From Poseidonia sp. (lineage in GTDB: Archaea > Thermoplasmatota > Poseidoniia > Poseidoniales > Poseidoniaceae), in the NCBI GenBank assembly GCA_965661285.1, contig CBFIDD010000003.1:8215-72214 (forward strand): a stretch of DNA of 64,000 nt. Direction: 5' to 3'. Positions 3,816-38,867 of the stretch are shown here, in pieces. Under the pieces are notes generated by a model. It was not told where the DNA came from. It did no database searches and saw nothing but the letters and a program-made list of their open reading frames with translations. Numbering within the stretch: the first letter of the stretch is position 1; every line of letters starts with the position of its first letter. The translations under genes and the position numbers were made by a program.

Positions 3816-6581
3816 GTAGAGGCTCTTGCGGTGAAGCGTCGCCTCAGGGGTCATGCCGCTGGCTTGGACCTGTTCGAGGCGGAATTTCCCTTCTTTGTTG
3901 TGCGCATAGAAGAGTTCGCTCTCGCTGAATTTCTCGTCCCAATGTCGTTTGAACACCTCGGCCTTCGCCTTCGAACTGGCAAGGGCCGACGGTACGTTGT
4001 GAAACATCACCAAATGTTGACGATGCGGGCGGATGTATTTCGCCAACACCTCGGGAAGCAATCTCGTGAGCCACGTCTCATAAGGGAACAGCGCCGCTCG
4101 GGAAATCACGTACCTCGGGTTCTCAAGTGGTGAGAGCACCTCTTCGAGACACTTCGAAAAGAGGGTGGCTTCTTCTGCTGTGGAATTCGCAAGGTGCATT
4201 CGAATCCAGCCCCCTCCTCGGTCTCCACCTGCCGCCTCAGTAGCTGGCGCCAACTGGTTGGTTTCAATGAGCGCACTCACAATGACCTCGCTGATGGCAA
4301 TGGTCAGCGATTCATCGTTCCAAGGGCTACCGGGTTCGGACATACCGATTCCCTCACTCGGGGCCAGTTTCTTTTCCACGGCATCCTTGGGTTTGGCGTT
4401 GAACGGCTGGCCGATACCCCAGAGCTCACGAGTCCGAGCGCGCATCTTGGACCGCTTCAACATCTCTTCGTTGAACATCGCCATGCCCTCGTGAACCCCG
4501 ATCGGTTTGGCGCTCACGAACGCCGGGTGAACGTGGCCTGGGCCCTTCTCAATGGCGCCGTCATCGCCGACCCCGTACAGCTGCTTGTGTTTTCGTTTGA
4601 AGCGTTTGTAATCACTGAAACCTGAATCAAATTCATCGGCCAGGCAAATGACGTCCCAGTTGTTGGCCACCTTCTCGGGCCAATGTTTGTCCAAACGAAT
4701 GCTGCGGCCTCGAAGTTGGTTGATGCTCATGTTCGTGGTCACGGACGTCAGGTCGATCAGCACGTTGATGCGCGAAGCGTCCCATCCCTCGCCCATGAGC
4801 CCACGCGTACCGATGAGACATCGAGTGAAACCTTCTTGGAAAAATTCGGTGATCATGGTGGAATAGTGACGTGGCACCCAGTCCTTTCCTGAACCGGAAA
4901 TCTCGTGGTAGCGACCCGAGACCACATCGCTGAGATTTATTTTCAAACGGCGTTCTGCAATCCATGCTCGCGCTTTTTCAAGAAAGGCCTCTGCCAAGTC
5001 GTCGTCCACCAACACGGTGCTGCCCGTCATCAAGATGGGGTCGAGCATGTCACCGGCCGGGCACGCGACCAAGTGGCGGAAGGCGGCGACGGCCCCCCCG
5101 GCCTCTTCGTCAAGCACATCGTCGACGAGCAATGTTGAGGAGGTCTTCTCAAAATCAGTGATCACCACGGCTCGAATGATGTTGCCGAGGTTTTGCATTT
5201 CTTCTCCGAGGATGGTGCTCAGCGCTTCGCATTTGGCGTTACTGTAGGCAAGAATCCGGTTGATGGGGGAGGCGCATTGTTGCCAGCCGGTTTCTGTGAT
5301 TTGCCACCCAAGCAAGCGGTAGTGAAGAGCGGTGCGCTCGGCTTTGGCTTGGTCGTTGGTGTTGCTTGACAGACGCAGCCCAAGACGAACATACTCTGAG
5401 ATGATATGCACTAACGTATCGCTGCGGTGATTTGTTGTAAACTCCAGGCCGTGGTCCCCCTTGAGCTGCTCGTCCGAGAGGGGAGGAACACCAGGTGGTA
5501 GGTCCCTGCCTTGAATCATCAAATATTCTCTGTGAATTTGACGAATGTGGCGTTGTTCCCTTTCGGTGTGCTCGTGCCAAGGGTAAGCCTGGAGTTCTTG
5601 TTCAATCCACTCGGTCAGCGGCAGGATGGCGCCTTCACCTTCCGAGGACTCGTTGAGTTGGTCAACGATGCTGTCGAAGGTCTCGTTCACGTCTCGGATA
5701 AACTCAAATTCCTTTCGGGCAGGTCGGACGAAATAGCACAGGTCCTGGTAGGGTGCAAGGTTCGAGTCCCTTACCAGTGCGGGAACCGGTACCTCGTAGT
5801 CAATCTCACCTAGGAAATCCATGTACCGCTCCGCATCCTCGTCCTTAGCACCATCAAGATCCGGCGGCGTTGCAGTGAGGCCAAGGACGATGGGGTCGTC
5901 AAAGAATTCTTTCAGTTGATGAAGCACTCGGCCCCAATGGTGGAGCAGGTGATGACACTCGTCGAGAATGATGAGCCCGATGCCGGCCTCTTTCAGTCGA
6001 AGCAGCGTTGTGCGCGAAGATTCATGCAAGGTCCAGAGAGCATTGCCGTTCTTTGCGTAGTCATCCCGGACCTTCTTTCTGTACACCTTCAAGCGCTGGC
6101 CAAAATAGGTTGGATTCTTCTCTTCCAAGTCGGCAATCCATGTCTCAGCTGAAGAGATGTCGCTCGCCTCCTCTTTTTCCACCAACTTTTCCGCCCACAG
6201 CATCAAGGCGGATTCATCCAAACCCTCGCCGCCACGTTTTGGCATGGTCACCGATTGGTAGGTCAGTGAGGTCAACAAGCCGGGTCGCTGCGGGTCAATG
6301 CTGACTTGGTCATCCTTCCCGTCGAGGTCGAACAGGTCGGTTCGGGCGGCCCACTGCGCTTGAATCGCAGAGTTGGGCGAGAGGACCAGGGCCGGTTTGC
6401 GGACCAAGTCCGCCCAGACATAGAGCCCAAGCACGGTTTTGCCTGAACCCGGCGGGGCGACGATGTGCAGCCGTTTTTCGTCTGCATTGAGTTGGGGTTG
6501 AATGACCGAGACAGCCGCAACCTGCGAGGGACGAAGTGTACCGTCGAATCGAATGTTCCCAAAGTCGGCTTCGCCGCTCAA
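3810..6581 (-). CDS. Superfamily-2 DEAD/DEAH-box helicase (type III restriction Res-subunit/XPB-like core) with a long inter-domain insert and a ~300-aa C-terminal region of unknown function
   Basis: The helicase motifs are Walker A APPGSGKT, motif II ILDECHHL, motif III LGLTATPP, helicase-C motifs IGTRGLMGEGWDASRINVLIDL and motif VI QLRGRSIR. The start codon is TTG. It lies 12 nt downstream of the Zn-ribbon repeat gene on the same strand. Confidence 0.7.
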   Translation of the reverse strand: MSGEADFGNIRFDGTLRPSQVAAVSVIQPQLNADEKRLHIVAPPGSGKTVLGLYVWADLVRKPALVLSPNSAIQAQWAARTDLFDLDGKDDQVSIDPQRPGLLTSLTYQSVTMPKRGGEGLDESALMLWAEKLVEKEEASDISSAETWIADLEEKNPTYFGQRLKVYRKKVRDDYAKNGNALWTLHESSRTTLLRLKEAGIGLIILDECHHLLHHWGRVLHQLKEFFDDPIVLGLTATPPDLDGAKDEDAERYMDFLGEIDYEVPVPALVRDSNLAPYQDLCYFVRPARKEFEFIRDVNETFDSIVDQLNESSEGEGAILPLTEWIEQELQAYPWHEHTEREQRHIRQIHREYLMIQGRDLPPGVPPLSDEQLKGDHGLEFTTNHRSDTLVHIISEYVRLGLRLSSNTNDQAKAERTALHYRLLGWQITETGWQQCASPINRILAYSNAKCEALSTILGEEMQNLGNIIRAVVITDFEKTSSTLLVDDVLDEEAGGAVAAFRHLVACPAGDMLDPILMTGSTVLVDDDLAEAFLEKARAWIAERRLKINLSDVVSGRYHEISGSGKDWVPRHYSTMITEFFQEGFTRCLIGTRGLMGEGWDASRINVLIDLTSVTTNMSINQLRGRSIRLDKHWPEKVANNWDVICLADEFDSGFSDYKRFKRKHKQLYGVGDDGAIEKGPGHVHPAFVSAKPIGVHEGMAMFNEEMLKRSKMRARTRELWGIGQPFNAKPKDAVEKKLAPSEGIGMSEPGSPWNDESLTIAISEVIVSALIETNQLAPATEAAGGDRGGGWIRMHLANSTAEEATLFSKCLEEVLSPLENPRYVISRAALFPYETWLTRLLPEVLAKYIRPHRQHLVMFHNVPSALASSKAKAEVFKRHWDEKFSESELFYAHNKEGKFRLEQVQASGMTPEATLHRKSLYL

Positions 6582-6593
6582 GGTTCAATCACC

Positions 6594-8261
6594 TCATCGG
6601 CCGGGCGGACCTCGTTTTGGACCGCCGGGGGGACCCTTCTTTTTGGGGCCGGGAGGACCTCGTTTTGGGCCGCCGGGGGGACCCTTCTTTTTGGGACCGG
6701 GAGGACCGCCAGGGCCGCTCTTCTTCGGACCGCCGGGGGGACCGCCAGGGGGACTGCTTTCCTTCGGACCGGGAGGACCGCCGGGACCGCCTTTCTTCGG
6801 ACCGCCGGGGGGACCCTTCTTTTTGGGACCGGGAGGACCGCCGGGACCGCCTTTCTTAGGACCGCCAGGAGGACCGCTCTTCTTCGGGCCGGGAGGACCG
6901 CCAGGACCGCCTTTCTTCGGACCGCCGGGAGGGCCCTTCTTTTTGCGACCGGGAGGACCGCCAGGACCGCTTTTCTTCGGACCGCCGGGAGGGCCCCTCT
7001 TCTTCGGGCCGGGTGGGCCGCCGCTCTTCTTTGGACCCGGGGGGCCGCCTTTCTTCGGGCCGGGTGGGCCACCCCGCAAAGGAGCCGGTTCGTCTTCTTC
7101 CTCCTCTTCGTCTTCGAACATGGCACCGCAGTGTGGACAGACCGGGTCGCTTTCCTTCACCAGACCATCACAGATTTCACAAGCAAACATTTCCTCATCT
7201 GAGGCTTCTTCACCAATCTTCTCTGTTTTCCCGTCCTTTGAGCGGAACATGGTGATGCTGCAGGATAAATCAAAACCTTTCAGCGCGAGTTCGGTTTGAA
7301 TGGCGTGCTCAAAGGCTTGAGTGAGATCGTCGGGCGAGTCCAAAACACGCCCATCATCCACATACGTGATGTTGACCTCAAACAGGTCGTCGGCCAATTT
7401 TGTTTGAGGCGCCTCTACGGCAACCCCTCGCTTCCGAGCAACACGGCGAACGGCGACCTCGGAAATGCGGCGTAGAAGGGCTTCATTTGGAGCGTCTTCT
7501 GCGGGTGTACCAAGAGCTCCAGCCATGATGTCGGCCGCAGGATTGCTGGTTTCGCTGCCACGAAGGTGGGCAGGCAGTTCACCTCCACCGAGATTTGCGA
7601 GGACGGAGGAGGCTGGTGACTGGTTCATCGAAAGCCATTGATTCCGACGCTCGTCTTTCACTGCTCGTTCGGCTTGAGCCAAGCGATTCACCATGGCGTC
7701 TGTAGGAGAATTCGCAGGGTTTTGGGCGACTTTTGTGCCCCCGGCAGACAATGGCGAGACATTGTTCGAAGTCGGCAAGGCGCCGCTGCCAATGGACGGG
7801 CCACGTTGGGGAGTTGGCATGTCGTTCATCGGTGCCTGCACATTGGTTGGCATGACGTTGCCATGTTGTGGAGGAAGCTGACCGGGAGGGAATTGGTTTG
7901 GCTGGGCCTGGTTGGGCTGGATTTGGTTCGGCGGGTATTGATTGGGAGGAAATCCGCCTTGAATTGGATGCTGGGGGTAGGTGCCCGGTGGCAGGTTTTG
8001 TTGCTGATGAATCCCTTGTGCCATGCCTTGGAGCATGTCGGGGGGCACCTGCCCCATCTGGTTCATGTTGTTTTCTTGCTGCATGCGTTGTGCCTGTCCC
8101 GATACGGGGTCAAACGAGCGTTGCTGAGGAGGGAAGGGAGGGATGGCTTGGTTTGGTGGGGGGGCGAAGCCACCTGCGACCGAAGTGTCTTGCCGAGCAC
8201 CGCATTCGGGGCAGAACATGCTGTCTGCTGGAATCTGCTCCCCACAGGCATTGCAGTTCAT
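6594..8261 (-). CDS. Low-complexity protein with two zinc ribbons, a Q/N/P-rich prion-like region and a basic collagen-like (GPPGPKK)n C-terminal tail
   Basis: The N-terminus reads MNCNACGEQIPADSMFCPECGARQD. A ~110-aa Q/N/P-rich stretch follows (NQYPPNQIQPNQAQPNQFPPGQLPPQ). The second ribbon is CEICDG...CPHCG. After an acidic EDEEEEEDE stretch come ~160 aa of GPPGGPKK(G/S)GPGGPPGPKK repeats. Confidence 0.6.
   Translation of the reverse strand: MNCNACGEQIPADSMFCPECGARQDTSVAGGFAPPPNQAIPPFPPQQRSFDPVSGQAQRMQQENNMNQMGQVPPDMLQGMAQGIHQQQNLPPGTYPQHPIQGGFPPNQYPPNQIQPNQAQPNQFPPGQLPPQHGNVMPTNVQAPMNDMPTPQRGPSIGSGALPTSNNVSPLSAGGTKVAQNPANSPTDAMVNRLAQAERAVKDERRNQWLSMNQSPASSVLANLGGGELPAHLRGSETSNPAADIMAGALGTPAEDAPNEALLRRISEVAVRRVARKRGVAVEAPQTKLADDLFEVNITYVDDGRVLDSPDDLTQAFEHAIQTELALKGFDLSCSITMFRSKDGKTEKIGEEASDEEMFACEICDGLVKESDPVCPHCGAMFEDEEEEEDEPAPLRGGPPGPKKGGPPGPKKSGGPPGPKKRGPPGGPKKSGPGGPPGRKKKGPPGGPKKGGPGGPPGPKKSGPPGGPKKGGPGGPPGPKKKGPPGGPKKGGPGGPPGPKESSPPGGPPGGPKKSGPGGPPGPKKKGPPGGPKRGPPGPKKKGPPGGPKRGPPGR
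6597..7075. repeat. Imperfect tandem DNA repeat, with a ~60-nt unit in about 8 copies, encoding the (GPPGGPKKGGPGGPPGPKKK)n tail of the upstream gene
   Basis: Units such as ggaccgccggg...ttctttttgggaccgggaggaccgccgggaccgcctttcttc are visibly repeated on the + strand. They generate the spurious overlapping ORFs at 6465-7299. Confidence 0.75.
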
Positions 8262-26452: not shown

Positions 26453-26674
26453 ATGATGTTTGGTCGGGATGTCATGGAGGTTCACTTCCACGGCAGGGAT
26501 GTCGACACCAAGGTGGAGGTGGAACCAGGCTGTACGGTGCGCCAAGCGCTGGAACAAGCCAACGTCTTACCGTCGATGGTGATCGTGAGCTACGAGGGGA
26601 CGGTCCTTCCCCATTCAACGCCGCTCCAGCAAAGCGTGGAGCTCCTGGTGACCACGATCTCCTCAGGCGGCTGA
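26453..26674 (+). CDS. Small ubiquitin-like beta-grasp protein of the ThiS/MoaD/SAMP family, ending in Gly-Gly
   Basis: The 73-aa ORF reads MMFGRDVMEVHFHGRDV...VIVSYEGTVL...VTTISSGG with a C-terminal diglycine. The upstream part of ORF 26327 overlaps the tRNA and was discarded. Confidence 0.55.
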   Translation: MMFGRDVMEVHFHGRDVDTKVEVEPGCTVRQALEQANVLPSMVIVSYEGTVLPHSTPLQQSVELLVTTISSGG

Positions 26675-28546
26675 ACGCTCAACGCGTTCGATGATCTGCA
26701 ACCGAGAATTTCTCGTGTAGTCACAGCGAATTTCCGAGGCCCAAGCGTCCAATCCGACGTTGGCAACCACAACAACATCACCAACTTCCAGCATGGCGTA
26801 TTGGGAATTCCAGTCGTCGGCCCAACCTTCCACCTTGCAAGCACCGGTGTGGTCCATCAACATGAGGCCCTTTCTCGACCACGCTTTCCCGTTTTTCCCG
26901 ACGCCCGATTTTTCATAGGTGTAGACCACCGTGCCGCCCACATTGTATTTGGCCTGATAATCAAACAAGTCAAAGGATTCCACATCGGGGTCCTCATCTG
27001 CCTCCAATCGAGAAAACGGGTCCATTTTCAGCACGATTTCACCCTTCCAGTTGATGGTGAAAATGGCATCTTTGAGCAACACCTTCGCCCCCTTCATGGC
27101 GGGTACGGCGACCGTCGGCTCACCATCAGAGGCTGAGGTCGCCACGACTTGGATATGCGCTTTGTTGACGCCCTGTTTCAAGGTCATTTTCAATGGTATG
27201 TTATCCTTTACATAGCCTACTGAGAACAATTCTCCACGCACCGTCGCCCGAGGATTCAGTGCACCAATTTCGTGAACGGTCGTCTCTTGGTTGAATCCCG
27301 GAAGTTGCACCTTTCCGGGGAGACGTTCGTCGTCGGTGCCGTCTCCACCCGGGCAAACCGCACGCCAGTCACACGAATCACATCGTGATACAGAAGGTGC
27401 CTCAGCGGGCACACCCCCAGGAGAAAACCCTCGCATCGCACTGGGTGTTGGAGGACAATCGAGCAGTTGCGGTGCGTTTTCCTTGAGTTCCTCCCAGAGC
27501 GTTTTCATCTCTGTTTCAATCGCTTCCATCTCCTCAACGGTTGGCACGGCGACCGACTTGATGCTCGGGTGGCCGAGGTACCAAATTTCGAGACCACCCA
27601 CCGATTCTTGGCGCTGGTGCGTCATGTACCAAAGCATGGCATACATCTGCAATTGTTTAACATAGTCTCCAGAACGGTCGTTCGCCCCCAGGCTGGCTTT
27701 GAGGTCAACGATGACGGGTGTGCCCGACCACCGGTACACAAGGTCGTACTCCCCTTGGAACCAGTGTTCCGGGTGTATGGCGTTCATGGTAAATTTTGGT
27801 GCGCTGGGATCGACGAACCACGGTCGGGCGAGTTCCCAAGCCTCCGTCCACGAGACGTGACCTTCTCCTGCGAGTGGATGGCCGCCTGAGAACGATTCGT
27901 GAGGGAAGCCATCGGGTGCCGGCCACGTTGGCCGTTCGCCTCTTCGCCACGCATCTTTGCTTTGGCCGCCGTCCGCTTGGAAGCAACGCTCCACCTCATC
28001 CAAATGGAAGCGAAGTGCACTTTCGACCATGTGCATGCAGCGCTCTTGGTCAACCTCGCTCCAATCACCTGCTTTTCGTTCGTCCTTTTCCCACTCGAGG
28101 CGCATACGTTCCAAAGCCGGAGGAAGATGAACTCGGCACCGCTCAAGCGCCCATGCCTCGAGGTCGGACTTCGATTGGGGTACTTCCGTCGGGAACAATG
28201 GCATCAAGCCCATGGAGGGCCAAACGTATTCGCCTTGCGGGAGTGGCGTGCCGTCCTCAGCATACGGCGAGGTGCCAATGGTGTACTCGCCAGCGTTGGC
28301 GAGAAGAAAACCAGGTGATTCCCGAAGGACATGGCAAACGGCTTCTTCCACCGCTCTTCCGACAAAGAGAACGGGTATCTGAGGCATCTTGAACCGGTAG
28401 ACTTTCTGGTAATACCAGAGGCGAGGGCAAGCCGTGTAGGTGTTTGCTTGGCTTGCTGAAATCCGGTTGTATGGCCCGACCGTGTCCTCCTCGCTGTTGG
28501 CCATGTGAACCGGCATGTCACAAGGACACCCTCCACTCTTTTTCAA
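26663..28546 (-). CDS. Cas4/RecB/Dna2-like PD-(D/E)XK nuclease with an Fe-S cysteine cluster, fused to a C-terminal ~230-aa region that looks like two OB folds (paralog B)
   Basis: The N-terminal motif is SASQANTYTACPRLWYYQKVY. The catalytic core shows GEYDLVYRW...VIVDLKAS (D, D-x-K) and QLQMYAML (QxxxY). The C-terminal Cys cluster is CDSCDWRAVC (C-x2-C-x5-C), with an additional N-terminal Cys. The C-terminal extension contains VRGELFSVG...IQVVA and VGGTVVYTY...LEVGDVVVVANV. Confidence 0.65.
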   Translation of the reverse strand: MKKSGGCPCDMPVHMANSEEDTVGPYNRISASQANTYTACPRLWYYQKVYRFKMPQIPVLFVGRAVEEAVCHVLRESPGFLLANAGEYTIGTSPYAEDGTPLPQGEYVWPSMGLMPLFPTEVPQSKSDLEAWALERCRVHLPPALERMRLEWEKDERKAGDWSEVDQERCMHMVESALRFHLDEVERCFQADGGQSKDAWRRGERPTWPAPDGFPHESFSGGHPLAGEGHVSWTEAWELARPWFVDPSAPKFTMNAIHPEHWFQGEYDLVYRWSGTPVIVDLKASLGANDRSGDYVKQLQMYAMLWYMTHQRQESVGGLEIWYLGHPSIKSVAVPTVEEMEAIETEMKTLWEELKENAPQLLDCPPTPSAMRGFSPGGVPAEAPSVSRCDSCDWRAVCPGGDGTDDERLPGKVQLPGFNQETTVHEIGALNPRATVRGELFSVGYVKDNIPLKMTLKQGVNKAHIQVVATSASDGEPTVAVPAMKGAKVLLKDAIFTINWKGEIVLKMDPFSRLEADEDPDVESFDLFDYQAKYNVGGTVVYTYEKSGVGKNGKAWSRKGLMLMDHTGACKVEGWADDWNSQYAMLEVGDVVVVANVGLDAWASEIRCDYTRNSRLQIIERVERSAA

Positions 28547-28567
28547 GCCTCAGTGCGGTGATGGTGC

Positions 28568-30313
28568 TCAACGCGTACCGAAGGTTTCCATTCGGGTCTT
28601 CCGGTTGTCAATGCGAAGTTGGAGCAAGCCTGAGCGCCAGCCGAGCTCAACCCCCGTCATCGCAACACCGTCGCCGGGACGCAAGGAAAGAAGCCGCTGG
28701 TTGATGCTCGAGCCAAAGGCCACAACCTCTGCGACATGATGGCCGTCCCACAACATGAGGGCGAGCATGGTCCAAGGTTTTCCATCGATACGGGTGCCCG
28801 ACCTTTGACGAATACCAAGGACATGGCCTTTCACATTGGCACGAGTTCGAAGCAAACCAAGGCGGGTTATCGGTGGCAAATCTTCCTCGCTCACCTCGCC
28901 TTCACTGTGCAAAACGGTGTTGGTATCAACGTAGAGACGCGGTTGGTCTCGCCAAACCCCCGGAAGTGCGTCCACGAGAACGATCTCACGTTCCATATGC
29001 TCGTGAAGTTGAGAAAACGCACCCGGTTCACTCTCTTCCACGGTGATATGTTGCTGACCAACGACCAAGACAGCACCCAAAACTGGCTCGGAAAAATGAT
29101 TGGGCATTGGACCCCATGCACCGGTTAAGCGACCTCGCACGGTCACCCGACCTTGCACGTCACCCAAATGTGAATACGGGGCGTTCATGCGCACCTCTGA
29201 CAGAGAAGTGATCCACGCGAGGTGGTCCGGTACCGACCAATGGCCGTCCTCTGAGCGAGCCACGGCACACCAACCGCAACCTGCTGCGTCGCCTCCACAT
29301 GCTTCCGACGGGGCGACCGGGAAGGCCTTGACGCCCTTCTCAACTTCTTGCATCGAACGGTGATGCTCGTGGAATTGGTTGGACAACATCGGCATCTCAT
29401 CCTTCGTAGGTGCATCGTACACCACGCGATGGGCGCCGTCCAGGTACCAACCCTCCATGCCGTCCGCGGTTTGACCCGCTTGGGTTTCATGCCACAGCCA
29501 CGCGTAGAACCGGAGTTGATGTTCAAGGGAGGAGGCAAACGCTGAGCCGGGCGAACCTGATTTGATGTCCACAATCCGAACACGACCGTCCCACCGCAGC
29601 ACCATATCCAGTTCACCCGAGGCCCAACCTTCAGGGTGATAGAGTCGCTGAGGCTGATGAACGCGCGGGTCCTTGAACCACGGCCGGGCACATTCCCACG
29701 CTTCGTGCCAAGTGATGGGGTCGTCGGGAGAAGACCATACCGGGGAGGTATCCGAAGCCCAGGCACGCTTTTCAACATCCCTCACCTTGTCGGGGAGTGG
29801 GAAAACCGGTACAGTGCCAAGCGCAGGTTCCGGGACATCAAAGGGTTGACCCCCTGACCGACGAAGGGAAAGATGAGGCCCGCCCTCTGCGTTGAAACAG
29901 GCTTCAACCTCTTCAAAAAACAGGGTTAAGCCGCCTTCAAGCCGTGCTTCGAGGGCCGCAGGTTCCACCTTGTCCCATGCGTCTTCGCTCGTTTTCCACA
30001 AGACCTCGTCCCACATCGTTTGGCCGGTCGTGTACGCTCTGCGAGCCGCTTCGGGCACATGACCAAGCGCCCATGCTTTCAAATCCGCAACCGATGAAAC
30101 CGCAGGGGGATGCATCATCAAGAGTTCACACAGAGTGTCTTCGAGCACGACACCCAGGATTTGCGAGGGTCGTGTTGGACCCTGAAGGCCAATCTGGTAG
30201 CTAAACAACCACTGCTTGGGACATCGCAGAAACGTGGTGAGCGAACTGGCGGAAATCCTGCCTCGGCTGCGACCGAGCGGGCCTCCACGTGGAGGGAGAC
30301 CTACAGGCATCAT
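28568..30313 (-). CDS. Cas4/RecB/Dna2-like PD-(D/E)XK Fe-S nuclease fused to a C-terminal OB-fold-like region (paralog A)
   Basis: The N-terminal motif is ISASSLTTFLRCPKQWLFSYQIGL. The catalytic core shows GELDMVLRW...RIVDIKSG and HQLRFYAWLW. The Cys cluster is CGGDAAGCGWC. The C-terminal extension contains VRGRLTG...VLVVG and KGHVLGIRQRSGTRIDGKPWTMLALMLWDG...VAMTGVEL. It lies 21 nt upstream of paralog B on the same strand. Confidence 0.65.
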   Translation of the reverse strand: MMPVGLPPRGGPLGRSRGRISASSLTTFLRCPKQWLFSYQIGLQGPTRPSQILGVVLEDTLCELLMMHPPAVSSVADLKAWALGHVPEAARRAYTTGQTMWDEVLWKTSEDAWDKVEPAALEARLEGGLTLFFEEVEACFNAEGGPHLSLRRSGGQPFDVPEPALGTVPVFPLPDKVRDVEKRAWASDTSPVWSSPDDPITWHEAWECARPWFKDPRVHQPQRLYHPEGWASGELDMVLRWDGRVRIVDIKSGSPGSAFASSLEHQLRFYAWLWHETQAGQTADGMEGWYLDGAHRVVYDAPTKDEMPMLSNQFHEHHRSMQEVEKGVKAFPVAPSEACGGDAAGCGWCAVARSEDGHWSVPDHLAWITSLSEVRMNAPYSHLGDVQGRVTVRGRLTGAWGPMPNHFSEPVLGAVLVVGQQHITVEESEPGAFSQLHEHMEREIVLVDALPGVWRDQPRLYVDTNTVLHSEGEVSEEDLPPITRLGLLRTRANVKGHVLGIRQRSGTRIDGKPWTMLALMLWDGHHVAEVVAFGSSINQRLLSLRPGDGVAMTGVELGWRSGLLQLRIDNRKTRMETFGTR

Positions 30314-30349: not shown

Positions 30350-32128
30350 TCATGCATCGTACGAATAGTAGTCACCACTGCTGCGTTGTTCCCGGTCTTT
30401 CCTACTGGCGTTCTTGTTGATACGAGGTCGGCGAGAGTCGTGGTCTCTTCGGAAGGTGACGTCAACCCCGGCCAAGAAGCGATTCATTCCCTCTCGCAGG
30501 TTGTACGGTCCCGTGGCCCGACCTTCCACCCCACCTTCACCCTCAAAAACAAGAAGGGAATCCGATACGATATCGATGAAATAGACGTCGTGGTCGATGA
30601 CAAAGGCCGATTTTTCATTTGCTTCCATCGTCCTCCGGATGGCTTTGGCGGCCTCCATTCGAGCGTTTGCATCAAGGTGGGCAGAGGGTTCGTCGAGAAG
30701 ATAGAGATCGGCATCTCGGCCTAAGCAGAGCGCGATTGAGACCGCTTGGCGCTCACCGCCAGAGAGTTTCTTGATACGCTTCGGGAGAAGTTGGTCAACG
30801 CCCAAGGCCTTGATGACATTGACATTGAACTCACCGCTTCGCCATCGTGGGCCGAGTTCACTGTCCAACCAGAGTTGAACAGAGCCGTTGATATCGACAT
30901 CGATGTGTTGGGGCTTGTAGGAAATCGTAGCGTCGGCGGTCACCCATCCTTCGTCATACTCGTGCTCGCCTGCGAGAATTTTGATCATCGTCGATTTCCC
31001 GGTTCCGTTGGAGCCAACGACGCCGACGACTTCTGACCGGTGAACGGCGCCATCACCTGATGTGAGTTTAAACTCACCAAGTTGTTTTTCCAAGCCCCCC
31101 CAACTCACGATAGGGGTGCCAATTTCGGCTGAACGGTCGCGGTGACGCAGGAACTTGATGGGCTTGTCACGAATACGCACATTCTCTTCGGGAAGGAAAC
31201 CATCGAGATAGGTGTTGATGGCTTGACGTGTTGAGCGGGCGGGGGTAAAGATGCCGAAAGCACCCTTCTTTCCATACACGATGTGAACCAAGTCGGCCAG
31301 AACATCCAGGACGGCAAGGTCGTGCTCGATGACGATGACTCGCTTGGTTTCGGCCAGTTCTTGGATGATCCGGACAATGCGCATGCGCTCATGGATGTCG
31401 AGATAGGAGGAGGGTTCGTCGAAGAAGTACACGTCGACGTCACGAAGAATCGTCGCACAAATCGCCATGCGCTGCAATTCACCGCCGGAGAGTTGCTGTA
31501 CGGTTCGCTGAAGCAGATGGTCGATGCCCAAGGAGCGCGTGGTCTCCTCCAGCAGCCCGCGCTCATCCACTTTACGCAGCAGGTCGTGGACAGTTCCGTT
31601 CACCCGCTTGGGGAGTTTGTCAACATTCTGAGGTTTGAGGGCCACTCGAACATTCCCTTTTTGCAGAGCGAGGAAAAAGTCCCGGAGTTCACCCTTTGGA
31701 AGGGACGCAATAACTGATTCCCAGTCCGGCTCTTGGTCCAGCCAATCTCCCAAGTTCGGCGTCATGCGGCCTGAGAGCGCACTGATGGCAGTGGATTTCC
31801 CCATCCCGTTGGGCCCAAGGATGCCGACGACGCTCTCTTTGGAGGGTGTTGGCAAGCGAAACAATCGGAAGCCGTTCATCGAATATCGGTGAATCATATC
31901 GGTTTCGAGTTCACTGGGAAGGTTTTCGATGATCAGGGCATCGTGTGGACACTTGTTGATGCAAATTCCACATCCGATGCACAGGCTTTCCGAGATGTGC
32001 GGTTTGCCGGTGTTTTCATCCATGATGATGCATTCTTGACCGTTGCGAACGGGGGGGCAGTAGACCTGGCATTCATCGTTGCACTTCTTCGGTTGACAGT
32101 TGTCTTCCTTCAGAACCGCAACACGCAT
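30350..32128 (-). CDS. abcE1: ABCE1 / RNase L inhibitor-like ribosome recycling ATPase
   Basis: The N-terminal double 4Fe-4S ferredoxin domain is CIGCGICINKCP. Two ABC ATPase cassettes follow (GPNGMGKST, GSNGTGKST, LSGGELQR, LSGGERQ). Start set at the ATG MRVAV; the ORF track's TTG start is at 32140. Confidence 0.85.
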   Translation of the reverse strand: MRVAVLKEDNCQPKKCNDECQVYCPPVRNGQECIIMDENTGKPHISESLCIGCGICINKCPHDALIIENLPSELETDMIHRYSMNGFRLFRLPTPSKESVVGILGPNGMGKSTAISALSGRMTPNLGDWLDQEPDWESVIASLPKGELRDFFLALQKGNVRVALKPQNVDKLPKRVNGTVHDLLRKVDERGLLEETTRSLGIDHLLQRTVQQLSGGELQRMAICATILRDVDVYFFDEPSSYLDIHERMRIVRIIQELAETKRVIVIEHDLAVLDVLADLVHIVYGKKGAFGIFTPARSTRQAINTYLDGFLPEENVRIRDKPIKFLRHRDRSAEIGTPIVSWGGLEKQLGEFKLTSGDGAVHRSEVVGVVGSNGTGKSTMIKILAGEHEYDEGWVTADATISYKPQHIDVDINGSVQLWLDSELGPRWRSGEFNVNVIKALGVDQLLPKRIKKLSGGERQAVSIALCLGRDADLYLLDEPSAHLDANARMEAAKAIRRTMEANEKSAFVIDHDVYFIDIVSDSLLVFEGEGGVEGRATGPYNLREGMNRFLAGVDVTFRRDHDSRRPRINKNASRKDREQRSSGDYYSYDA

Positions 32129-32221
32129 TCCGTCACCCAACCTGTCCTCTCGTCTGTTCTATTTTGTTTCACCTGCCATTCCCGGATTAAAACCGGAAAA
32201 AGGCAATCCAGCGATTCCAGC

Positions 32222-34197: not shown

Positions 34198-36852
34198 ATG
34201 GAGCGTGCAAGCATGTCCAAACGAGGAATGATGGACCAGTTCTTTGACATCAAAGAACAACATCCAGACACCGTCCTCTTCTTCCGAATGGGCGATTTCT
34301 ACGAACTCTTTCACGAAGACGCCGAAATCGCTGCTGAGGTGCTCGGTCTTTCGCTGACGTCGAGGGATAAAAACGCAGAACAGCCCATCCCCATGGCAGG
34401 CTTTCCTTGGCACGGCTTGGAAGACCATCTACGCACCATGCTTCGAGCGGGTTACAAAGTGACGGTCGCCGAGCAGGAGGAAGAATTACGACCCGGTGCG
34501 AAGTTATTGGAACGGGTCGTCACGAGGGTTTACACGCCCGGCAGCCTCTACGAAGAGGGCTTGTTGGAGGGCGACGAGCAAGCGCTCTTGGCTGCGGTCG
34601 TCATGGGCCCTCAACAACTGGGCCTGGCCGTTCTGGATGCCTCAACCGGCAAAGCATGGGCGAGTTCGCACGAGGGTGCTGACCGCTTCACTCGCCTCCA
34701 AGACGACCTTCTACGGTGGCAACCAAGCGAGCTGGTCGTTTCTCCAAAAGATGCTGAGAACGAGCACCTCGTTCACCTGTTCCCCCAACTTGACGGCACC
34801 ATGGTGAGTCAACACCAACTCAGCCAATCCAAGCGAGAGGAGCGACTTCGAACCATGCTTGACGTCGCCGACCTCGGCCACCTTGACCTTGACCACGCCC
34901 CGCTCGCCATCTCGGCAACCGGCCTCGCCGCAGATTACCTCGCAACGGTTCATCTCCGTCAAGACGTCCCTCTCCAAGACGTCGAGGTGATAGAAGAACA
35001 AGGCCACCTTCTGTTGGACCAAACCACACTGCGGAACCTGGAATTGACGTCGACGTTGGCAGGGGAGTACGACGGGAGTCTGCTTTCAACACTCAACCGT
35101 TGCCGAACGGCGATGGGCCGGCGTCTGTTGAAAACGTGGCTCCTCCAACCGCTCTCGAACATGGACGCCATTCAAACCCGCCACCAAGCCGTGGCCACCT
35201 TAACCCGCTCAGCCCGGCGCTTGGATGGGATGCGAACCTCCCTCCAGGGCATCAGAGACATGGAACGCCTCGCCACCCAACTCGCCTACCAGCGAAGCAA
35301 CGCCAGAGACCTCGTTGCCACCGCTCATGCGCTTGAGCGCATGCCCGCCATCGTTCAATGGTGCAAGGATAGCGGGGATGCGCTCCTCATGCATTTGTCC
35401 GATGGGCTTGAACAACTCAATGAGATGATGCAGACCATTCAAAACACGCTTGCTGACCACCCTCCGCTTGGACTGCGCGACGGCGGACTCCTGCGCAGTG
35501 GGGTCGACGAGGAGGTTGACCGACTCCGCGCCGTGACCTCCGAAGGGAAGGCCTGGTTCTCCAATCTTGAACAACAGCTGAGGGAATCCTTGGGCATACC
35601 ATCGCTGAAAGTCAAGAACAATCGCCAAGTTGGCTGGTACATCGAGGTCACGCAAACCCACATCGAAAAGGTTCCATCGACATGGCGAAGAAAGCAACAA
35701 CTCACCAACGGGTCCCGATACACCACCGAAGAGTTGGTTGAACGCGACGACCTCTTGCTCACCGCCGATTCCAAACTCAAAGAACTCGAGTATCGACGTT
35801 TCCTCGAATTGCGAACCTATTGTGGAACACAAGCGGCCACCCTGGCTGAAATTGCCCGTCGTGTGGCGGCCATCGATATCCTCCAGTGCTTTGCGTCGGT
35901 CAGCAGGGAGCGCCAGTGGACCAAACCCGATATCACGGACAAACATGTGATTCAACTTGAGGGGGCCCGCCACCCAGTTCTTGAGACCCAATCAGGATTC
36001 GTCCCCAACGACGTCGCCATGAATGCGAAGCGGAGTTTCCTGCTCATCACCGGCCCAAACATGGGCGGTAAATCCACCTACCTTCGGACGGTGGCGTTGG
36101 TCACGGTTTTGGCACAGGCGGGATGTTTTGTTCCCGCAAAGCAAGCCAAGATTGGGCTGGTTGACCGCATATTCACCCGCGTCGGAGCCAGCGACGACCT
36201 AAAGAGGGGCCGTTCGACGTTCATGATGGAGATGATCGAGGTTGCTCACATTCTCAAGCGAGCCAGTGAGCGGTCGCTGGTCTTGTTGGATGAAATCGGA
36301 CGAGGAACGTCAACCTTTGACGGCCTTTCCATCGCATGGTCGGTCACCGAAGACATCTGCTCCAGGATTGGCGCTCGGACCCTCTTTGCCACCCACTACC
36401 ACCAACTCATTGGATTGGAGGGCGAGGTCAACGGTCTGTGCAACGTCCACGTTCAGGTGGCTCAAGTTGATGGCAATCTCCGTTTCCTTCATTCGGTTGC
36501 CGACGGCCCGTGCGACGAATCCTACGGCGTCCAGGTGGCTGCGTTGGCAGGTCTACCAAGGAGCGTGGTGGAACGGGCGAGTGACCTTCTCGCCTTCCTC
36601 GAACAACAAGCCGGAGGCGCCAAGGCAGGCGAACACGGTGCACCGCAATCCCGTGATGCAGGCCAAGCAAGTCTCATGGGCTATTTTGCCGCCGCCGCCA
36701 TGAAGACCTCAGCACCTTCGCCACCCGCCATACCAGCACACGTGGAACGAACGATGAACCGCCTCCAAAGCACCAACGTTGACGAACTCAGCCCGCGTCA
36801 AGCCCTTGACGTCCTCTACGCGCTTCAACAAGAACTGGAGGACGGTGCATGA
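34198..36852 (+). CDS. mutS: DNA mismatch repair protein MutS (bacterial-type MutS1)
   Basis: The mismatch-binding N-terminus is FFRMGDFYELF, the Walker A is GPNMGGKSTYLR, the conserved C-terminal region is DEIGRGTSTFDG, and TLFATHYH is present. Confidence 0.9.
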   Translation: MERASMSKRGMMDQFFDIKEQHPDTVLFFRMGDFYELFHEDAEIAAEVLGLSLTSRDKNAEQPIPMAGFPWHGLEDHLRTMLRAGYKVTVAEQEEELRPGAKLLERVVTRVYTPGSLYEEGLLEGDEQALLAAVVMGPQQLGLAVLDASTGKAWASSHEGADRFTRLQDDLLRWQPSELVVSPKDAENEHLVHLFPQLDGTMVSQHQLSQSKREERLRTMLDVADLGHLDLDHAPLAISATGLAADYLATVHLRQDVPLQDVEVIEEQGHLLLDQTTLRNLELTSTLAGEYDGSLLSTLNRCRTAMGRRLLKTWLLQPLSNMDAIQTRHQAVATLTRSARRLDGMRTSLQGIRDMERLATQLAYQRSNARDLVATAHALERMPAIVQWCKDSGDALLMHLSDGLEQLNEMMQTIQNTLADHPPLGLRDGGLLRSGVDEEVDRLRAVTSEGKAWFSNLEQQLRESLGIPSLKVKNNRQVGWYIEVTQTHIEKVPSTWRRKQQLTNGSRYTTEELVERDDLLLTADSKLKELEYRRFLELRTYCGTQAATLAEIARRVAAIDILQCFASVSRERQWTKPDITDKHVIQLEGARHPVLETQSGFVPNDVAMNAKRSFLLITGPNMGGKSTYLRTVALVTVLAQAGCFVPAKQAKIGLVDRIFTRVGASDDLKRGRSTFMMEMIEVAHILKRASERSLVLLDEIGRGTSTFDGLSIAWSVTEDICSRIGARTLFATHYHQLIGLEGEVNGLCNVHVQVAQVDGNLRFLHSVADGPCDESYGVQVAALAGLPRSVVERASDLLAFLEQQAGGAKAGEHGAPQSRDAGQASLMGYFAAAAMKTSAPSPPAIPAHVERTMNRLQSTNVDELSPRQALDVLYALQQELEDGA

Positions 36853-38867
36853 AACCGAGGAAAATCAAGCAATTGGACGATGCGACCATCGGTTTCATCG
36901 CCGCAGGCGAAGTGGTTGAACGCCCGGCTCAAGTGGTCAAGGAACTGATTGAAAACAGCCTCGATGCGGGTTCAACCTCCATCTTGATCACCGTTGAGCG
37001 AGGTGGATTTGACCGCGTTGCGGTTGAAGACAACGGAAGCGGCATCGGCGAAGCGGACCTGCCCCTCGCCCTCGACCGGCACGCAACGTCAAAATTGAGC
37101 ACGAAAGACGACCTCGCTTCGATTGTATCGCTTGGGTTCCGAGGTGAAGCCCTGGCAAGTATCGGCATGGTCTCTCGTCTTCGCATCGCCAGCAGACCAA
37201 GGGGTGAACAAGGAGCCAGTATCGTCATGGAGGATGGTGTCAAATCCGCGCCCCAACCGTTCGGTATGGCAGAGGGGACCGTTATTTCTGTCGAGCACCT
37301 CTTCCAAAACACACCCGCCCGTCTCGCTTTTCAGCGCCGCCCGGAGACAGAAACGGCTCGCATTGTTGACGTCGTGGTCGACCATGCACTGGCCCATCCA
37401 TCCTGCGGCTTCCACTTGAAAACCGAACGAAGATCGCTCCTCAACGTCCCGGCCACGGAAAACATGCTCGATCGCCTTTATGACATCATGGGAGCACAAG
37501 CCACCGAACTGGTTGAACTCAAGTTGCCTCCTGAGGATGAAGATGCACCTGGAAGCGAACGCTGGAGCGGCTACATCAGCACGCCCGACATCACACGAGG
37601 AAAAGGCGATGATATTCACGTTCTCATCAACAACCGCCCGGTTGGTGCGGGCCCGTTCCTCCAAGCCATCCGTCGGGGCTACAAAACCCGGCTGATGCAG
37701 GGGCGACACCCGCTTGCGGTCGTGAACCTCCAGTGCCCGCCCGGCGAGGTTGATGTCAACGTCCACCCGACCAAACGGGAGGTGCGTTTACGGCATTCAT
37801 GGCGCGTGCTGGAACGACTGGAACGAGCCATTGCCTACACGCTGGAAGCCGTTCCGACCGAACCCGACGCCACGGGAGAGATTCCCGGTCTCCAAGGGCT
37901 CGCAGGTACGAAGCAGGCAAAGCCAGTAGAAACTTACTTCTCAGGAGACGCAGCGGAACCTCGCCCCGACACCTCCATTGCATCGGCTGCAGGGATGACA
38001 GAAACACTCGATGGAGCGCCAACGCCTGCACCCGCGGCACCACCGGCCTGGGCCGTCGCAGCGGGCCGACAGTTGAACCTCGTTGGGCAAGAAGCCGCAG
38101 AAAAAAACGAGCCGCTGAGAGAACGCCCCGTTTCAGCCTCGCCGCTTGGCCAAGGCGTTCTTCCGAACATGCCTGAAGCACCCGTCGCCGCGCCGCTGTC
38201 CTCTGCTGAGCGTGATTTGCATCGACACGCAGGAAAAGGCCTCACCTCCAGTCCAAGCGATGAAGCGCCGCTTGAGGGTGTGTTGAACGACCTTCCGCAC
38301 ATGGAACCGTTGGCCCAATTTGCTGACTCGTACATTCTGGTTCAAGCAGAAGACGAGCTTCTTCTCATCGACCAACACGCGCTTCATGAACGCGTACGAT
38401 ACGAACGATTGCGCCACAGCGGACAAGCATGGGAAGCCCAACGTCGACTTACACCTCTTCCACTTTACCTCGATCCAAGGCAGTCAGCCCTGGTCGATGC
38501 CCACCACGAACGACTGCAGGAACTTGGTTTCCATCTTTCAAGCGACCAAGGCGCTTGGTTGCTGGATGCCTCACCTCAACTCCTCGGCGGAGATGAAATC
38601 AAGCAGTTCTTGCTCGACCTGCTCCAAGACCTTGCCTTGGATGGCGGGCCGCTTGAAACCATTGAATCGAAAAAAGACCATATTGCGTTCATGAAGGCCT
38701 GTCGTGGGTCCGTCAAGGCGAACGAATCGCTTTCCCTCCCCGAAATGCGGCGATTGCTCGACGATATGCGACGCATCCAAAATCCATGGGCGTGTGTCCA
38801 CGGCCGGCCAACCTCCTTGCGCATCTCCATCGACAGCTTGGACCATCACTTTGGCCGCCACGGCTAA
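36849..38867 (+). CDS. mutL: DNA mismatch repair protein MutL
   Basis: The GHKL ATPase N-terminus is VVKELIENSLDAG and DNGSGI. The C-terminal dimerisation/endonuclease region includes QHALHERV. The start overlaps the mutS stop (ATGA). Confidence 0.9.
   Translation: MKPRKIKQLDDATIGFIAAGEVVERPAQVVKELIENSLDAGSTSILITVERGGFDRVAVEDNGSGIGEADLPLALDRHATSKLSTKDDLASIVSLGFRGEALASIGMVSRLRIASRPRGEQGASIVMEDGVKSAPQPFGMAEGTVISVEHLFQNTPARLAFQRRPETETARIVDVVVDHALAHPSCGFHLKTERRSLLNVPATENMLDRLYDIMGAQATELVELKLPPEDEDAPGSERWSGYISTPDITRGKGDDIHVLINNRPVGAGPFLQAIRRGYKTRLMQGRHPLAVVNLQCPPGEVDVNVHPTKREVRLRHSWRVLERLERAIAYTLEAVPTEPDATGEIPGLQGLAGTKQAKPVETYFSGDAAEPRPDTSIASAAGMTETLDGAPTPAPAAPPAWAVAAGRQLNLVGQEAAEKNEPLRERPVSASPLGQGVLPNMPEAPVAAPLSSAERDLHRHAGKGLTSSPSDEAPLEGVLNDLPHMEPLAQFADSYILVQAEDELLLIDQHALHERVRYERLRHSGQAWEAQRRLTPLPLYLDPRQSALVDAHHERLQELGFHLSSDQGAWLLDASPQLLGGDEIKQFLLDLLQDLALDGGPLETIESKKDHIAFMKACRGSVKANESLSLPEMRRLLDDMRRIQNPWACVHGRPTSLRISIDSLDHHFGRHG

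What the first reader, a model, noticed from the sequence alone, without database searches (positions are those of the whole stretch)
26663..30313. Tandem paralogous Cas4/Dna2-like Fe-S PD-(D/E)XK nucleases fused to C-terminal OB-fold-like modules, with no CRISPR context
Two adjacent same-strand genes of 581 and 627 aa, 21 nt apart, share one architecture.
- The N-terminal ~380 aa in each look like a RecB-family nuclease with all catalytic signatures intact: the D motif (GELDMV, GEYDLV), the D-x-K motif (IVDIKS, IVDLKA), QxxxY (QLRFYAWL, QLQMYAML) and a four-cysteine set (one N-terminal Cys plus C-x6-C-x2-C in A, C-x2-C-x5-C in B). This is the arrangement seen in Cas4, AddB, Exo5 and the Dna2 nuclease domain.
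- The C-terminal ~200 aa in each resemble one or two OB folds of the RPA/SSB type.

No CRISPR repeats or cas genes are present in the 64 kb. The pair sits in a housekeeping neighbourhood (L10e, ABCE1, tRNA-Ser). I do not recognise a Cas4-like nuclease fused to OB folds as a described archaeal protein family, and it is duplicated in tandem here. It could be a DNA-end-resection or flap-processing pair functionally analogous to Dna2-RPA, or a stand-alone nucleic-acid surveillance module.
Basis: partly seen in the sequence, partly recalled or inferred. Interest (0 to 1): 0.8.

Follow-up and report, generated by a model that had tools for sequence, protein, structure and literature searches.

The report
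Paired Fe-S nucleases with built-in OB folds
Two neighbouring genes, kept as a pair in every sampled lineage of the abundant ocean archaea Poseidoniales (Marine Group II), each encode a Cas4/Dna2-type DNA-cutting enzyme fused to two RPA-like single-stranded-DNA-binding modules; nobody has characterised this combination, it probably trims DNA tails during chromosome repair, and its function remains inferred.

Summary

The pair is vertically inherited across Poseidoniales (Poseidoniaceae, Thalassarchaeaceae and deeper lineages), usually as ABCE1-A-B. It is absent from viral contigs and hits no defence model beyond the shared nuclease domain. No CRISPR array is present. The family is narrow: 568 hits among 1.84 billion representatives. 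A rare single-copy short form, apparently with one OB fold, occurs in bacterial-type contexts (one cluster named Planctomycetes).

No paper found describes the architecture. The best reading is a two-subunit, helicase-less ssDNA-tail or flap nuclease for chromosomal repair or replication. That function, and any A-B complex, are inferred only. It is a new variant of a known kind.

The parts
28568..30310 (-). Gene A: 580-aa Fe-S RecB/Cas4-family nuclease with two C-terminal OB folds (581 aa if read from the first ATG at 30313)
29258..30259 (-). A nuclease half (aa ~19-352). N-terminal Cys31, a helical insert, the RecB core with D236, D249-x-K251 and Q266-x3-Y270, then C339/C346/C349
28901..29152 (-). 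A OB fold 1 (aa ~388-471)
28577..28849 (-). A OB fold 2 (aa ~489-579)
28517..28567 (-). A-B intergenic spacer (51 nt) with a Shine-Dalgarno-like GGAGG 10 nt upstream of B's ATG
   Evidence: Sequence. The spacer is 26-61 nt in 56 of 58 related loci.
26663..28516 (-). Gene B: 617-aa paralog with the same architecture. The mechanical ORF from the TTG at 28546 is 627 aa
27347..28465 (-). B nuclease half (aa ~18-390). C30, a helical insert, D258, D271-x-K273, Q288-x3-Y292, then C379-x2-C382-x5-C388
26996..27256 (-). B OB fold 1 (aa ~421-507)
   Evidence: Beta strands 423-506 in the model. Foldseek tandem-OB hits: RPA70 DBD-A/B (4gop_C) E 1.6e-8, Teb1-AB, HIN-200, Pot1. Weak profile match to Sulfolobus SSB, E 0.07.
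26684..26956 (-). B OB fold 2 (aa ~521-611)
30350..32140 (-). ABCE1 (RLI), the conserved upstream same-strand neighbour. It is context and a possible co-transcript, not shown to be a functional partner
   Evidence: ORF. ABCE1-A-B order in all Poseidoniaceae loci long enough to show it and in L084, L087, L088, L089 and L090. Broken in L082. 39-nt gap with an SD-like AGGGGGG before A.

Best explanation
A and B are two catalytically intact paralogs of an uncharacterised branch of the RecB/AddB/Cas4-like (Pfam PDDEXK_1) iron-sulfur nuclease superfamily. Each has a C-terminal tandem of RPA-like OB folds.

Shown here:
- The domain architecture of both proteins.
- Invariance of the active-site residues and of the four cluster-type cysteines in both paralogs.
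- Strict pairing of the two genes.
- Vertical inheritance across the order Poseidoniales, in a housekeeping block.

Inferred:
- The OB tandem binds single-stranded DNA and holds it for the attached nuclease. By analogy with Dna2, Exo5, AddB and Cas4, that nuclease would accept a free ssDNA end or tail through the arch stapled by the Fe-S cluster.
- Both paralogs keep active sites, evolve at the same rate and are never found apart in the archaea. They therefore probably act together (heterodimer or hand-off), perhaps on strands of opposite polarity, like the two nuclease domains of AddAB or AdnAB but without a fused helicase.
- The likely role is trimming ssDNA tails, flaps or gaps during chromosomal double-strand-break resection, replication-fork or Okazaki-flap processing, or excision repair.
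For: Architecture:
- Pfam PDDEXK_1 above cutoff in both.
- Invariant motifs and cysteines.
- Confident models whose pTM of 0.82-0.83 suggests the OB modules sit in a defined position relative to the nuclease.
- Nuclease half closest to Dna2, AdnA/AdnB, ACE1, Cas4, Exo5 and MGME1. ACE1 is an experimentally shown ssDNA endonuclease (PMC12094033 abstract).
- OB modules closest to ssDNA-binding tandems: RPA70 DBD-A/B, Teb1-AB, Pot1 and P. abyssi RPA.

The four cysteines act as a unit:
- One lineage (P0257) lacks the N-terminal Cys and has the 3-Cys segment deleted.

Pairing:
- A and B are adjacent in all 80 genome loci except those cut by a contig end.
- They are also adjacent in six deeper lineages, and NCBI accessions are consecutive.
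- Equal divergence: mean identity 0.601 against 0.605. The OB parts are as conserved as the nuclease parts.
- Short spacer with an SD-like sequence.

Core-gene behaviour:
- 428 confirmed stretches in species-representative genomes. The 80 shown are all from Poseidoniales-type MAGs except one contig labelled Verrucomicrobiales, probably mis-binned.
- No relative in 2.9 million viral contigs.
- No defence-system model matched beyond the nuclease domain.
- No CRISPR array.
Against: - There is no experimental or expression evidence of any kind.
- No helicase, recombinase or Mre11/Rad50-type gene is consistently linked to the pair.
- The only conserved same-strand neighbour is the ribosome-recycling ATPase ABCE1, which points, if anywhere, to translation rather than DNA repair.
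Cysteine clustering and the path from the OB folds to the active site were not inspected.
Confidence: 0.55

Rival explanations
1. RNA- or ribosome-linked nuclease pair. A and B are co-transcribed with ABCE1 and act on RNA, for example on stalled-ribosome mRNA or in rRNA or tRNA processing, with the OB folds binding RNA.
For: - ABCE1-A-B order with short gaps is conserved in Poseidoniaceae, Thalassarchaeaceae and three deeper lineages, even where the genes upstream of ABCE1 differ.
- SD-like sequences and 39-nt and 51-nt spacers.
- The flanking genes are translation-related: L10e, eIF2alpha, S27e, L44e, Nop10.
Against: - All the closest solved nuclease relatives are DNA enzymes (Dna2, AdnAB, ACE1, Cas4, Exo5, MGME1). 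From established knowledge, every characterised Fe-S member of this superfamily acts on DNA.
- The best sequence-level OB match is RPA.
- The linkage is broken in L082.
- Archaeal housekeeping operons often mix unrelated functions (general knowledge).
- The bacterial short form has no translation neighbours.
Confidence: 0.12
2. Stand-alone nucleic-acid surveillance or defence module, of the solo-Cas4 or ACE1 type, that degrades invading DNA.
For: - Weak Cas4 and DruK domain hits in PADLOC.
- Solo-Cas4 genes have been proposed to have uncharacterised defence or repair roles in small-genome microbes (PMC5704561 abstract).
Against: - Strictly vertical inheritance at a fixed locus in every sampled lineage, which is unlike defence islands.
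- No Argonaute, cas, restriction or other defence gene was seen among the neighbours examined.
- No relatives in viral contigs.
- PADLOC hits cover the nuclease core only.
- The NCBIfam cas4 model scores far below its cutoff.
- The bacterial relatives sit in housekeeping contexts.
Confidence: 0.1
3. Excision nuclease of the bacterial-type MutS/MutL mismatch-repair system of these archaea. The built-in OB folds would replace SSB, and the two paralogs would supply 5' and 3' excision. This is a special case of the DNA-repair reading.
For: - MutS (34198-36852) and MutL (36849-38867) lie about 4 kb away.
- That proximity is kept in 62-65 of the related loci.
- Bacterial mismatch repair needs ssDNA exonucleases of both polarities plus SSB (established knowledge for E. 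coli).
Against: - Throughout Poseidoniaceae the whole >20-kb block is collinear, so proximity carries no information there.
- MutS and MutL are on the opposite strand, with three genes in between.
- They are absent from the flanks in L082 and L084 and from the gene lists of L087-L090.
Confidence: 0.08
4. Two independent enzymes. After an old duplication, A and B diverged to different substrates and do not form a complex. Adjacency is only a remnant of the tandem duplication.
For: - Only ~25-27% identity between the paralogs.
- Family-specific conserved surfaces, for example A's N-terminal PPxGGPLGRSRxR and TRLGLLRTRANV against B's NWKGE and GWxDDWxxQY.
- The bacterial short form works as a single gene.
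Against: - No sampled archaeal lineage has lost one copy or separated the two.
- Divergence rates are nearly identical, although shared phylogeny explains much of that correlation.
- The short, SD-containing spacer suggests co-translation from one mRNA.
Confidence: 0.3

Closest known systems
Dna2 nuclease domain (eukaryotic Dna2; PDB 5ean)
   Same: - Fe-S-stapled RecB-type nuclease that acts on ssDNA tails.
- From established knowledge, Dna2 also carries an OB fold and works with RPA.
   Different: - No SF1B helicase domain: the proteins are 580 and 617 aa, and PDDEXK_1 is the only Pfam domain above threshold.
- The OB folds are C-terminal, tandem and RPA-like, not Dna2's single N-terminal OB.
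- Sequence identity is only 11-12%.
- Two paralogous subunits rather than one polypeptide.
AddAB / AdnAB two-nuclease end-resection complexes (PDB 9np6, 6ppu)
   Same: - Two paralogous, adjacent genes, each contributing one RecB-type nuclease domain.
- Same Pfam family (PDDEXK_1).
   Different: - There is no UvrD-like motor in either subunit, and no helicase gene is consistently adjacent.
- OB folds occupy the place of a DNA-engaging module.
- Heterodimer formation is unproven here.
Cas4 / solo-Cas4 and ACE1 (Cas4-family ssDNA nucleases; PDB 8d3l, 4ic1, 9iab)
   Same: - Same fold and the same 1+3 cysteine arrangement.
   Different: - The NCBIfam cas4 model scores 15.5 and 32 bits against a cutoff of 65.
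- The nuclease half is nearly twice Cas4's length because of a helical insert.
- No cas1, cas2, CRISPR array or Argonaute nearby.
- The C-terminal OB tandem is absent from Cas4 and ACE1.
RPA / archaeal Replication factor A OB domains (PDB 8aa9, 8aaj, 3e0e, 1jmc)
   Same: - Fold and tandem arrangement of the C-terminal 200 aa.
   Different: - NCBIfam RPA models score far below their cutoffs: 13 against 447 bits.
- No RPA zinc-ribbon OB or trimerisation core was recognised.
- The OB folds are fused to an enzyme rather than forming a free-standing SSB.
Other nuclease-plus-OB designs: archaeal HAN (DHH nuclease + S1 + OB; PMC6158738 abstract); bacterial RecJ and ExoVII XseA (from memory)
   Same: The same design logic: an ssDNA-binding OB module tethered to an ssDNA nuclease.
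   Different: Unrelated catalytic folds (DHH and others), no Fe-S cluster and no paralogous pair.

Membership tests
Pfam PF12705 PDDEXK_1 (AddB/Cas4-like RecB-family nucleases) | Score above the curated gathering threshold | tested here: met
   65.6 bits (A) and 61.8 bits (B) against a cutoff of 22.
Pfam PF12705 PDDEXK_1 (AddB/Cas4-like RecB-family nucleases) | Catalytic motifs D, (D/E)xK and QxxxY | tested here: met
   Invariant in 23 A-family and 25 B-family orthologs and in distant relatives.
Fe-S cluster subclass (AddB, Dna2, Cas4, Exo5) | One N-terminal Cys plus three Cys C-terminal to the nuclease core | tested here: met
   A: C31, C339, C346, C349. B: C30, C379, C382, C388. All are invariant within each family. 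All four are missing together in P0257.
Fe-S cluster subclass (AddB, Dna2, Cas4, Exo5) | Actual binding of a [4Fe-4S] or [2Fe-2S] cluster | not testable with these tools
   Needs purified protein (UV-vis, EPR).
Cas4 sensu stricto (TIGR00372; CRISPR adaptation) | Equivalog HMM score above cutoff | tested here: not met
   15.5 bits (A) and 32 bits (B) against a cutoff of 65.
Cas4 sensu stricto (TIGR00372; CRISPR adaptation) | Association with cas1/cas2 or a CRISPR array | tested here: not met
   No CRISPR-like array in the 64 kb. No cas gene among the scanned ORFs or in the neighbour lists of related loci.
Dna2 | Nuclease domain of Dna2 type | tested here: met
   [not shown]
Dna2 | C-terminal SF1B helicase domain | tested here: not met
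   No helicase domain in Pfam or NCBIfam. The C-terminal 200 aa are OB folds.
AddAB / AdnAB | Two paralogous subunits, each with a RecB-type nuclease domain | tested here: met
   [not shown]
AddAB / AdnAB | UvrD-like SF1 helicase motor in the subunits | tested here: not met
   No helicase domain was detected.
AddAB / AdnAB | Stable heterodimer | not testable with these tools
No multimer predictor is available.
RPA / archaeal SSB | OB fold of the ssDNA-binding type | tested here: met
   [not shown]
RPA / archaeal SSB | Family-level HMM membership (NCBIfam RPA or SSB equivalogs; Pfam OB models above cutoff) | tested here: not met
   PRK07218 scores 13.2 bits against a cutoff of 447, and PRK08402 scores 11.1 against 442. 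Pfam tRNA_anti-codon hits are sub-threshold, best E 0.0022.
ACE1 (Argonaute-associated Cas4-family enzyme) | Co-encoded with a long-A prokaryotic Argonaute | tested here: not met
   No Argonaute among the neighbours in the window or in related loci.

The most novel reading that the evidence does not exclude
A and B form a heterodimeric, motor-less dual nuclease. Each subunit carries its own RPA-like ssDNA clamp, and the two active sites cut strands of opposite polarity. This complex would be the main DNA-end-resection or gap-excision machine of Poseidoniales. It would either replace the HerA-NurA system of other archaea or serve the bacterial-type MutS/MutL pathway these archaea carry. That would make it a lineage-specific third solution to end processing, beside the helicase-nuclease machines of bacteria (RecBCD, AddAB) and of other archaea and eukaryotes.
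Probability: 0.2. Interest if true: 0.75.

Novelty: new variant of a known kind. Interest (0 to 1): 0.55.

Why it matters
Poseidoniales (Marine Group II) are among the most abundant archaea in the sunlit ocean. They are uncultured, so their genome maintenance is known only from annotation.

Here is a conserved, order-wide gene pair, catalytically intact and currently labelled 'hypothetical' or a generic nuclease. Its architecture joins two well-understood parts, a Dna2/AddB-type Fe-S nuclease and an RPA-type ssDNA-binding tandem, in a way not described before.

If the pair is a repair nuclease, it would show that ssDNA capture can be built into the nuclease itself rather than supplied by a helicase or free RPA. 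It would also fill a gap in the predicted repair repertoire of a globally important lineage. It is a compact, testable target for biochemistry: two soluble ~65-kDa proteins with clear active-site mutants. If it turns out to be linked to ABCE1 and translation, it would be the first RNA-directed member of the Fe-S RecB family.

Tried and rejected
1. Heterodimer test by a tethered single-chain AlphaFold run.
- An alignment of the fused chain with unpaired homolog ids was useless: MAFFT placed the A-family rows on the B half (A5).
The question stays open.

2. AFDB50 fold search for full-length structural analogues. The library was unavailable.

3. MutS/MutL proximity as a functional clue. Rejected: the proximity is conserved only inside the fully collinear Poseidoniaceae block.

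4. Defence or mobile-element origin.
- PADLOC gave only domain-level Cas4 and DruK hits.
- No relative in the viral contigs.
- No CRISPR array.

5. A crude regular-expression screen suggested that some lineages had lost motifs. An alignment showed these were false negatives, apart from the real loss of the four cysteines in P0257.

6. Single-sequence PDB searches gave nothing significant. Only the C-terminal family profile reached RPA.

7. Literature searches for the architecture and for the HerA/NurA/Mre11 repertoire of MGII found nothing relevant.

8. Whether Poseidoniales lack HerA/NurA, Dna2 or RecJ could not be tested.

Full report
**The observation**

The window carries two minus-strand ORFs at the stated place: 28568..30313 (581 aa, A) and 26663..28546 (627 aa, B). 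They are real paralogs. BLASTP gives 25% identity over essentially the whole length, E 2e-36. A profile-profile comparison of the two ortholog families gives probability 100%, E 4.8e-51, over 547 aligned columns from the N-terminal MPV to the last strand.

Both proteins pass the Pfam PDDEXK_1 gathering score (65.6 and 61.8 bits against 22). The NCBIfam cas4 equivalog is far below its cutoff (15.5 and 32 against 65).

- A: C31, D236, D249, K251, Q266, Y270, and C339-x6-C346-x2-C349.
- B (numbered from the conserved Met): C30, D258, D271, K273, Q288, Y292, and C379-x2-C382-x5-C388.

Two small corrections are needed. Nearly all B orthologs begin MPV at the ATG at 28516, and a GGAGG lies 10 nt upstream. 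B is therefore most likely 617 aa, and the A-B spacer is 51 nt rather than 21. The spacer is 26-61 nt in 56 of 58 related loci. A probably starts at the second ATG (30310).

**Structure**

AlphaFold2 models built with the family alignments are confident:
- B: mean pLDDT 86.5, pTM 0.83.
- A: mean pLDDT 84.5, pTM 0.82.

Both show an alpha/beta N-terminal half with a long helical insert, then two all-beta modules (B 423-506 and 523-610; A 390-470 and 491-578). The high pTM for the whole chain suggests the OB modules sit in a defined position relative to the nuclease rather than on a floppy tether. I could not inspect the coordinates.

- then Cas4, MGME1, Exo5 and SSO0001.

**Distribution**

Each protein has hundreds of full-length relatives. 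Source names, where present, are only 'hypothetical protein' or 'PD-(D/E)XK nuclease family protein', from Candidatus Poseidoniaceae, Poseidonia, Thalassarchaeaceae, Poseidoniales or Poseidoniia.

A scan of one genome per GTDB species found 428 confirmed stretches. The 80 best are all from Poseidoniales-type MAGs, including the original MG-II assembly CM001443. One contig is labelled Verrucomicrobiales and is almost certainly mis-binned.

An exhaustive HMM search of 1.84 billion representatives found only 568 hits at E <= 1e-3 and 76 at E <= 1e-30. About 33 of these are full-length and the rest are fragments. The family is narrow.

Its only relatives outside the archaea are a small group of 430-477 aa proteins. 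These have the same nuclease motifs and cysteines but a C-terminal region long enough for only one OB fold, which I did not model. There are 23 clusters, one named from a Planctomycetes MAG. They are single-copy genes beside cytochrome complexes, peptidases or F-type ATPase genes.

No relative exists in 2.9 million viral contigs.

**Gene context**

In every related locus long enough to show it, the order is L10e - ABCE1 - A - B, followed by the convergent PAC2 and eIF2alpha genes. Across Poseidoniaceae the whole block of more than 20 kb is collinear, including MutL, MutS and purF. Proximity therefore carries no information inside that family.

The deeper lineages are more telling. Thalassarchaeaceae (L087, L088), a high-GC lineage on a 3.0-Mb contig (L089), L090 and L084 all keep ABCE1 - A-like - B-like. 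They also keep the convergent PAC2 - eIF2alpha - S27e - L44e block. The genes upstream of ABCE1 are different there: phytoene synthase, an amine oxidase and succinyl-CoA ligase. L082 keeps A-B but has ABCE1 6 kb away on the other strand.

A and B are thus never separated in the archaea. ABCE1 is a frequent but not obligatory upstream partner. MutS/MutL proximity is not conserved.

A and B diverge at the same rate across 231 genome pairs (mean identity 0.601 against 0.605). The OB regions are as conserved as the nuclease regions. Distant A-like sequences keep all the catalytic motifs, so neither paralog is a degenerate partner. One lineage (P0257) lacks the N-terminal cysteine and has the three-cysteine segment deleted. 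That is what one expects if the four cysteines form a single cluster-binding unit.

**What it most likely does**

Shown: two intact RecB-family active sites, four cluster-type cysteines, two RPA-type OB folds per chain, obligate pairing, vertical inheritance in a housekeeping block, and absence of defence, viral or CRISPR context.

Inferred from the properties of the closest solved relatives: Dna2, AddB/AdnAB, Cas4, Exo5 and ACE1 are all nucleases that act on single-stranded DNA or ssDNA tails. ACE1 is an experimentally shown ssDNA endonuclease (PMC12094033). RPA70 DBD-A/B, Teb1-AB and Pot1 are ssDNA-binding tandems.

The simplest mechanism is that the OB tandem captures ssDNA and presents it to the attached nuclease, and that the two paralogs work together. 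They may cut strands of opposite polarity, like the two nuclease domains of AddAB or AdnAB, but without a fused motor. Likely substrates are resected or unwound DNA ends, flaps or gaps in chromosomal repair and replication.

I give this overall reading about 0.55. Within it, the 'act as a complex' step is the weakest, about 0.4.

**Rivals**

1. An RNA- or ribosome-linked role, suggested by the conserved ABCE1-A-B arrangement and by the similar fit of the OB folds to aminoacyl-tRNA-synthetase anticodon-binding domains. Against it: every close nuclease relative acts on DNA, and the linkage is broken in L082 (about 0.12).
2. A surveillance or defence role of the solo-Cas4 or ACE1 type. Fixed-locus vertical inheritance and the lack of any defence neighbour argue against it (about 0.1).
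3. A mismatch-repair excision nuclease. The MutS/MutL proximity is not conserved (about 0.08; a sub-case of repair).
4. Two independent, subfunctionalised enzymes rather than a complex (about 0.3 for that sub-question).

**Comparison with known families**

The proteins are members of Pfam PDDEXK_1 and of its Fe-S subclass by sequence criteria.
- They are not Cas4 sensu stricto: the HMM score is below cutoff and there is no cas or CRISPR context.
- They are not Dna2: there is no helicase domain.
- They are not AddAB or AdnAB: there is no motor.
- They are not RPA by family models.

Nuclease-plus-OB is a familiar design. HAN has a DHH nuclease with an OB fold (PMC6158738), and from memory RecJ, ExoVII and Dna2 itself also combine the two. 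The main phylogenomic survey of the Cas4 family discusses pfam12705 fusions to UvrD-like and YprA-like helicases and never mentions an OB fusion (PMC5704561). Four full-text searches found no description of this architecture or of the relevant MGII repair genes.

I therefore class it as a new variant of a known kind. It is a previously undescribed domain architecture and paralogous pairing within a well-known nuclease superfamily, conserved in a globally abundant uncultured lineage, with its function inferred only.

**Limits**

- No multimer prediction was possible.
- The AFDB library was unavailable.
- Model coordinates could not be examined.
- The scan of the window for cas genes covered the larger ORFs only.

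Noticed in passing
window 26474-26674 (+): A 66-aa ORF convergent with B overlaps B's last 12 nt and ends in ...SSGG. It gives a weak Pfam hit to ubiquitin-like Ub-RnfH (E 0.034). Orthologous 66-aa ORFs sit between B and PAC2 in L084, L087-L090, and the L087/L088 copies give a weak SAMP2 hit. It is probably a small archaeal ubiquitin-like modifier next to the proteasome-assembly chaperone PAC2.
   Followed up: partly
window 34198-36852 (+) and 36849-38867 (+): Complete bacterial-type MutS (all five MutS domains) and MutL, with overlapping stop and start codons, about 4 kb from the nuclease pair. The proximity is conserved only within the collinear Poseidoniaceae block.
   Followed up: yes
The 560-aa ORF gives only sub-threshold OB hits (REPA_OB_2 E 0.015, tRNA_anti-codon E 0.019), and the 308-aa ORF gives none. 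The RPA assignment is plausible but unverified.
   Followed up: partly
window 56336-58936 (-) and 3810-6581 (-): A Hel308/Ski2-like helicase (DEAD, Helicase_C and archaeal helicase domain 4) and a second 923-aa ResIII/DEAD helicase are in the window. Neither is adjacent to the nuclease pair.
   Followed up: no
window 6600-7070: A tandem repeat array of 24/60/120-nt periods. It lies inside overlapping ORFs and looks like a coding Gly/Pro-rich repeat, next to zinc-ribbon motifs in the 555-aa ORF at 6594-8261. It is not a CRISPR array.
   Followed up: no
P0257 (A-like, 606 aa; found): One divergent A-like lineage lacks the N-terminal cysteine (WERGKRDW where others have WERCPRQW) and has the whole three-cysteine segment deleted, yet keeps the catalytic motifs. 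This is an apparent loss of the entire Fe-S site.
   Followed up: partly
A family C62, C139; B family C61, C160, C178 (window genes A and B): Extra cysteines in the helical insert are invariant within Poseidoniaceae. C62/C61 and C139/C178 align between the paralogs. They are only partly conserved in distant lineages and absent or non-equivalent in the bacterial short form. They could be a disulfide, a second metal site, or simply core residues.
   Followed up: partly
Poseidoniaceae A family against distant A-like sequences (alignment A7): The three C-terminal cluster cysteines are spaced C-x6-C-x2-C in Poseidoniaceae A. In B, in distant A-like proteins and in the bacterial short form they are spaced C-x2-C-x5-C. 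One ligand seems to have moved from downstream to upstream of the CxxC pair.
   Followed up: partly
L003 (NZEQ01000046.1): A contig labelled 'Verrucomicrobiales bacterium' carries the full archaeal block L10e-ABCE1-A-B-PAC2-eIF2alpha at 81-96% identity to the window. It is almost certainly a mis-binned Poseidoniaceae contig.
   Followed up: partly
L081, L085, L086 and the P0319 contig: Rare 430-477 aa homologs in bacterial-type contexts (one cluster named Planctomycetes). They have the same nuclease motifs and a C-terminal region long enough for only one OB fold. They are single-copy genes in housekeeping contexts and may represent the ancestral or a horizontally transferred form of the family.
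   Followed up: partly
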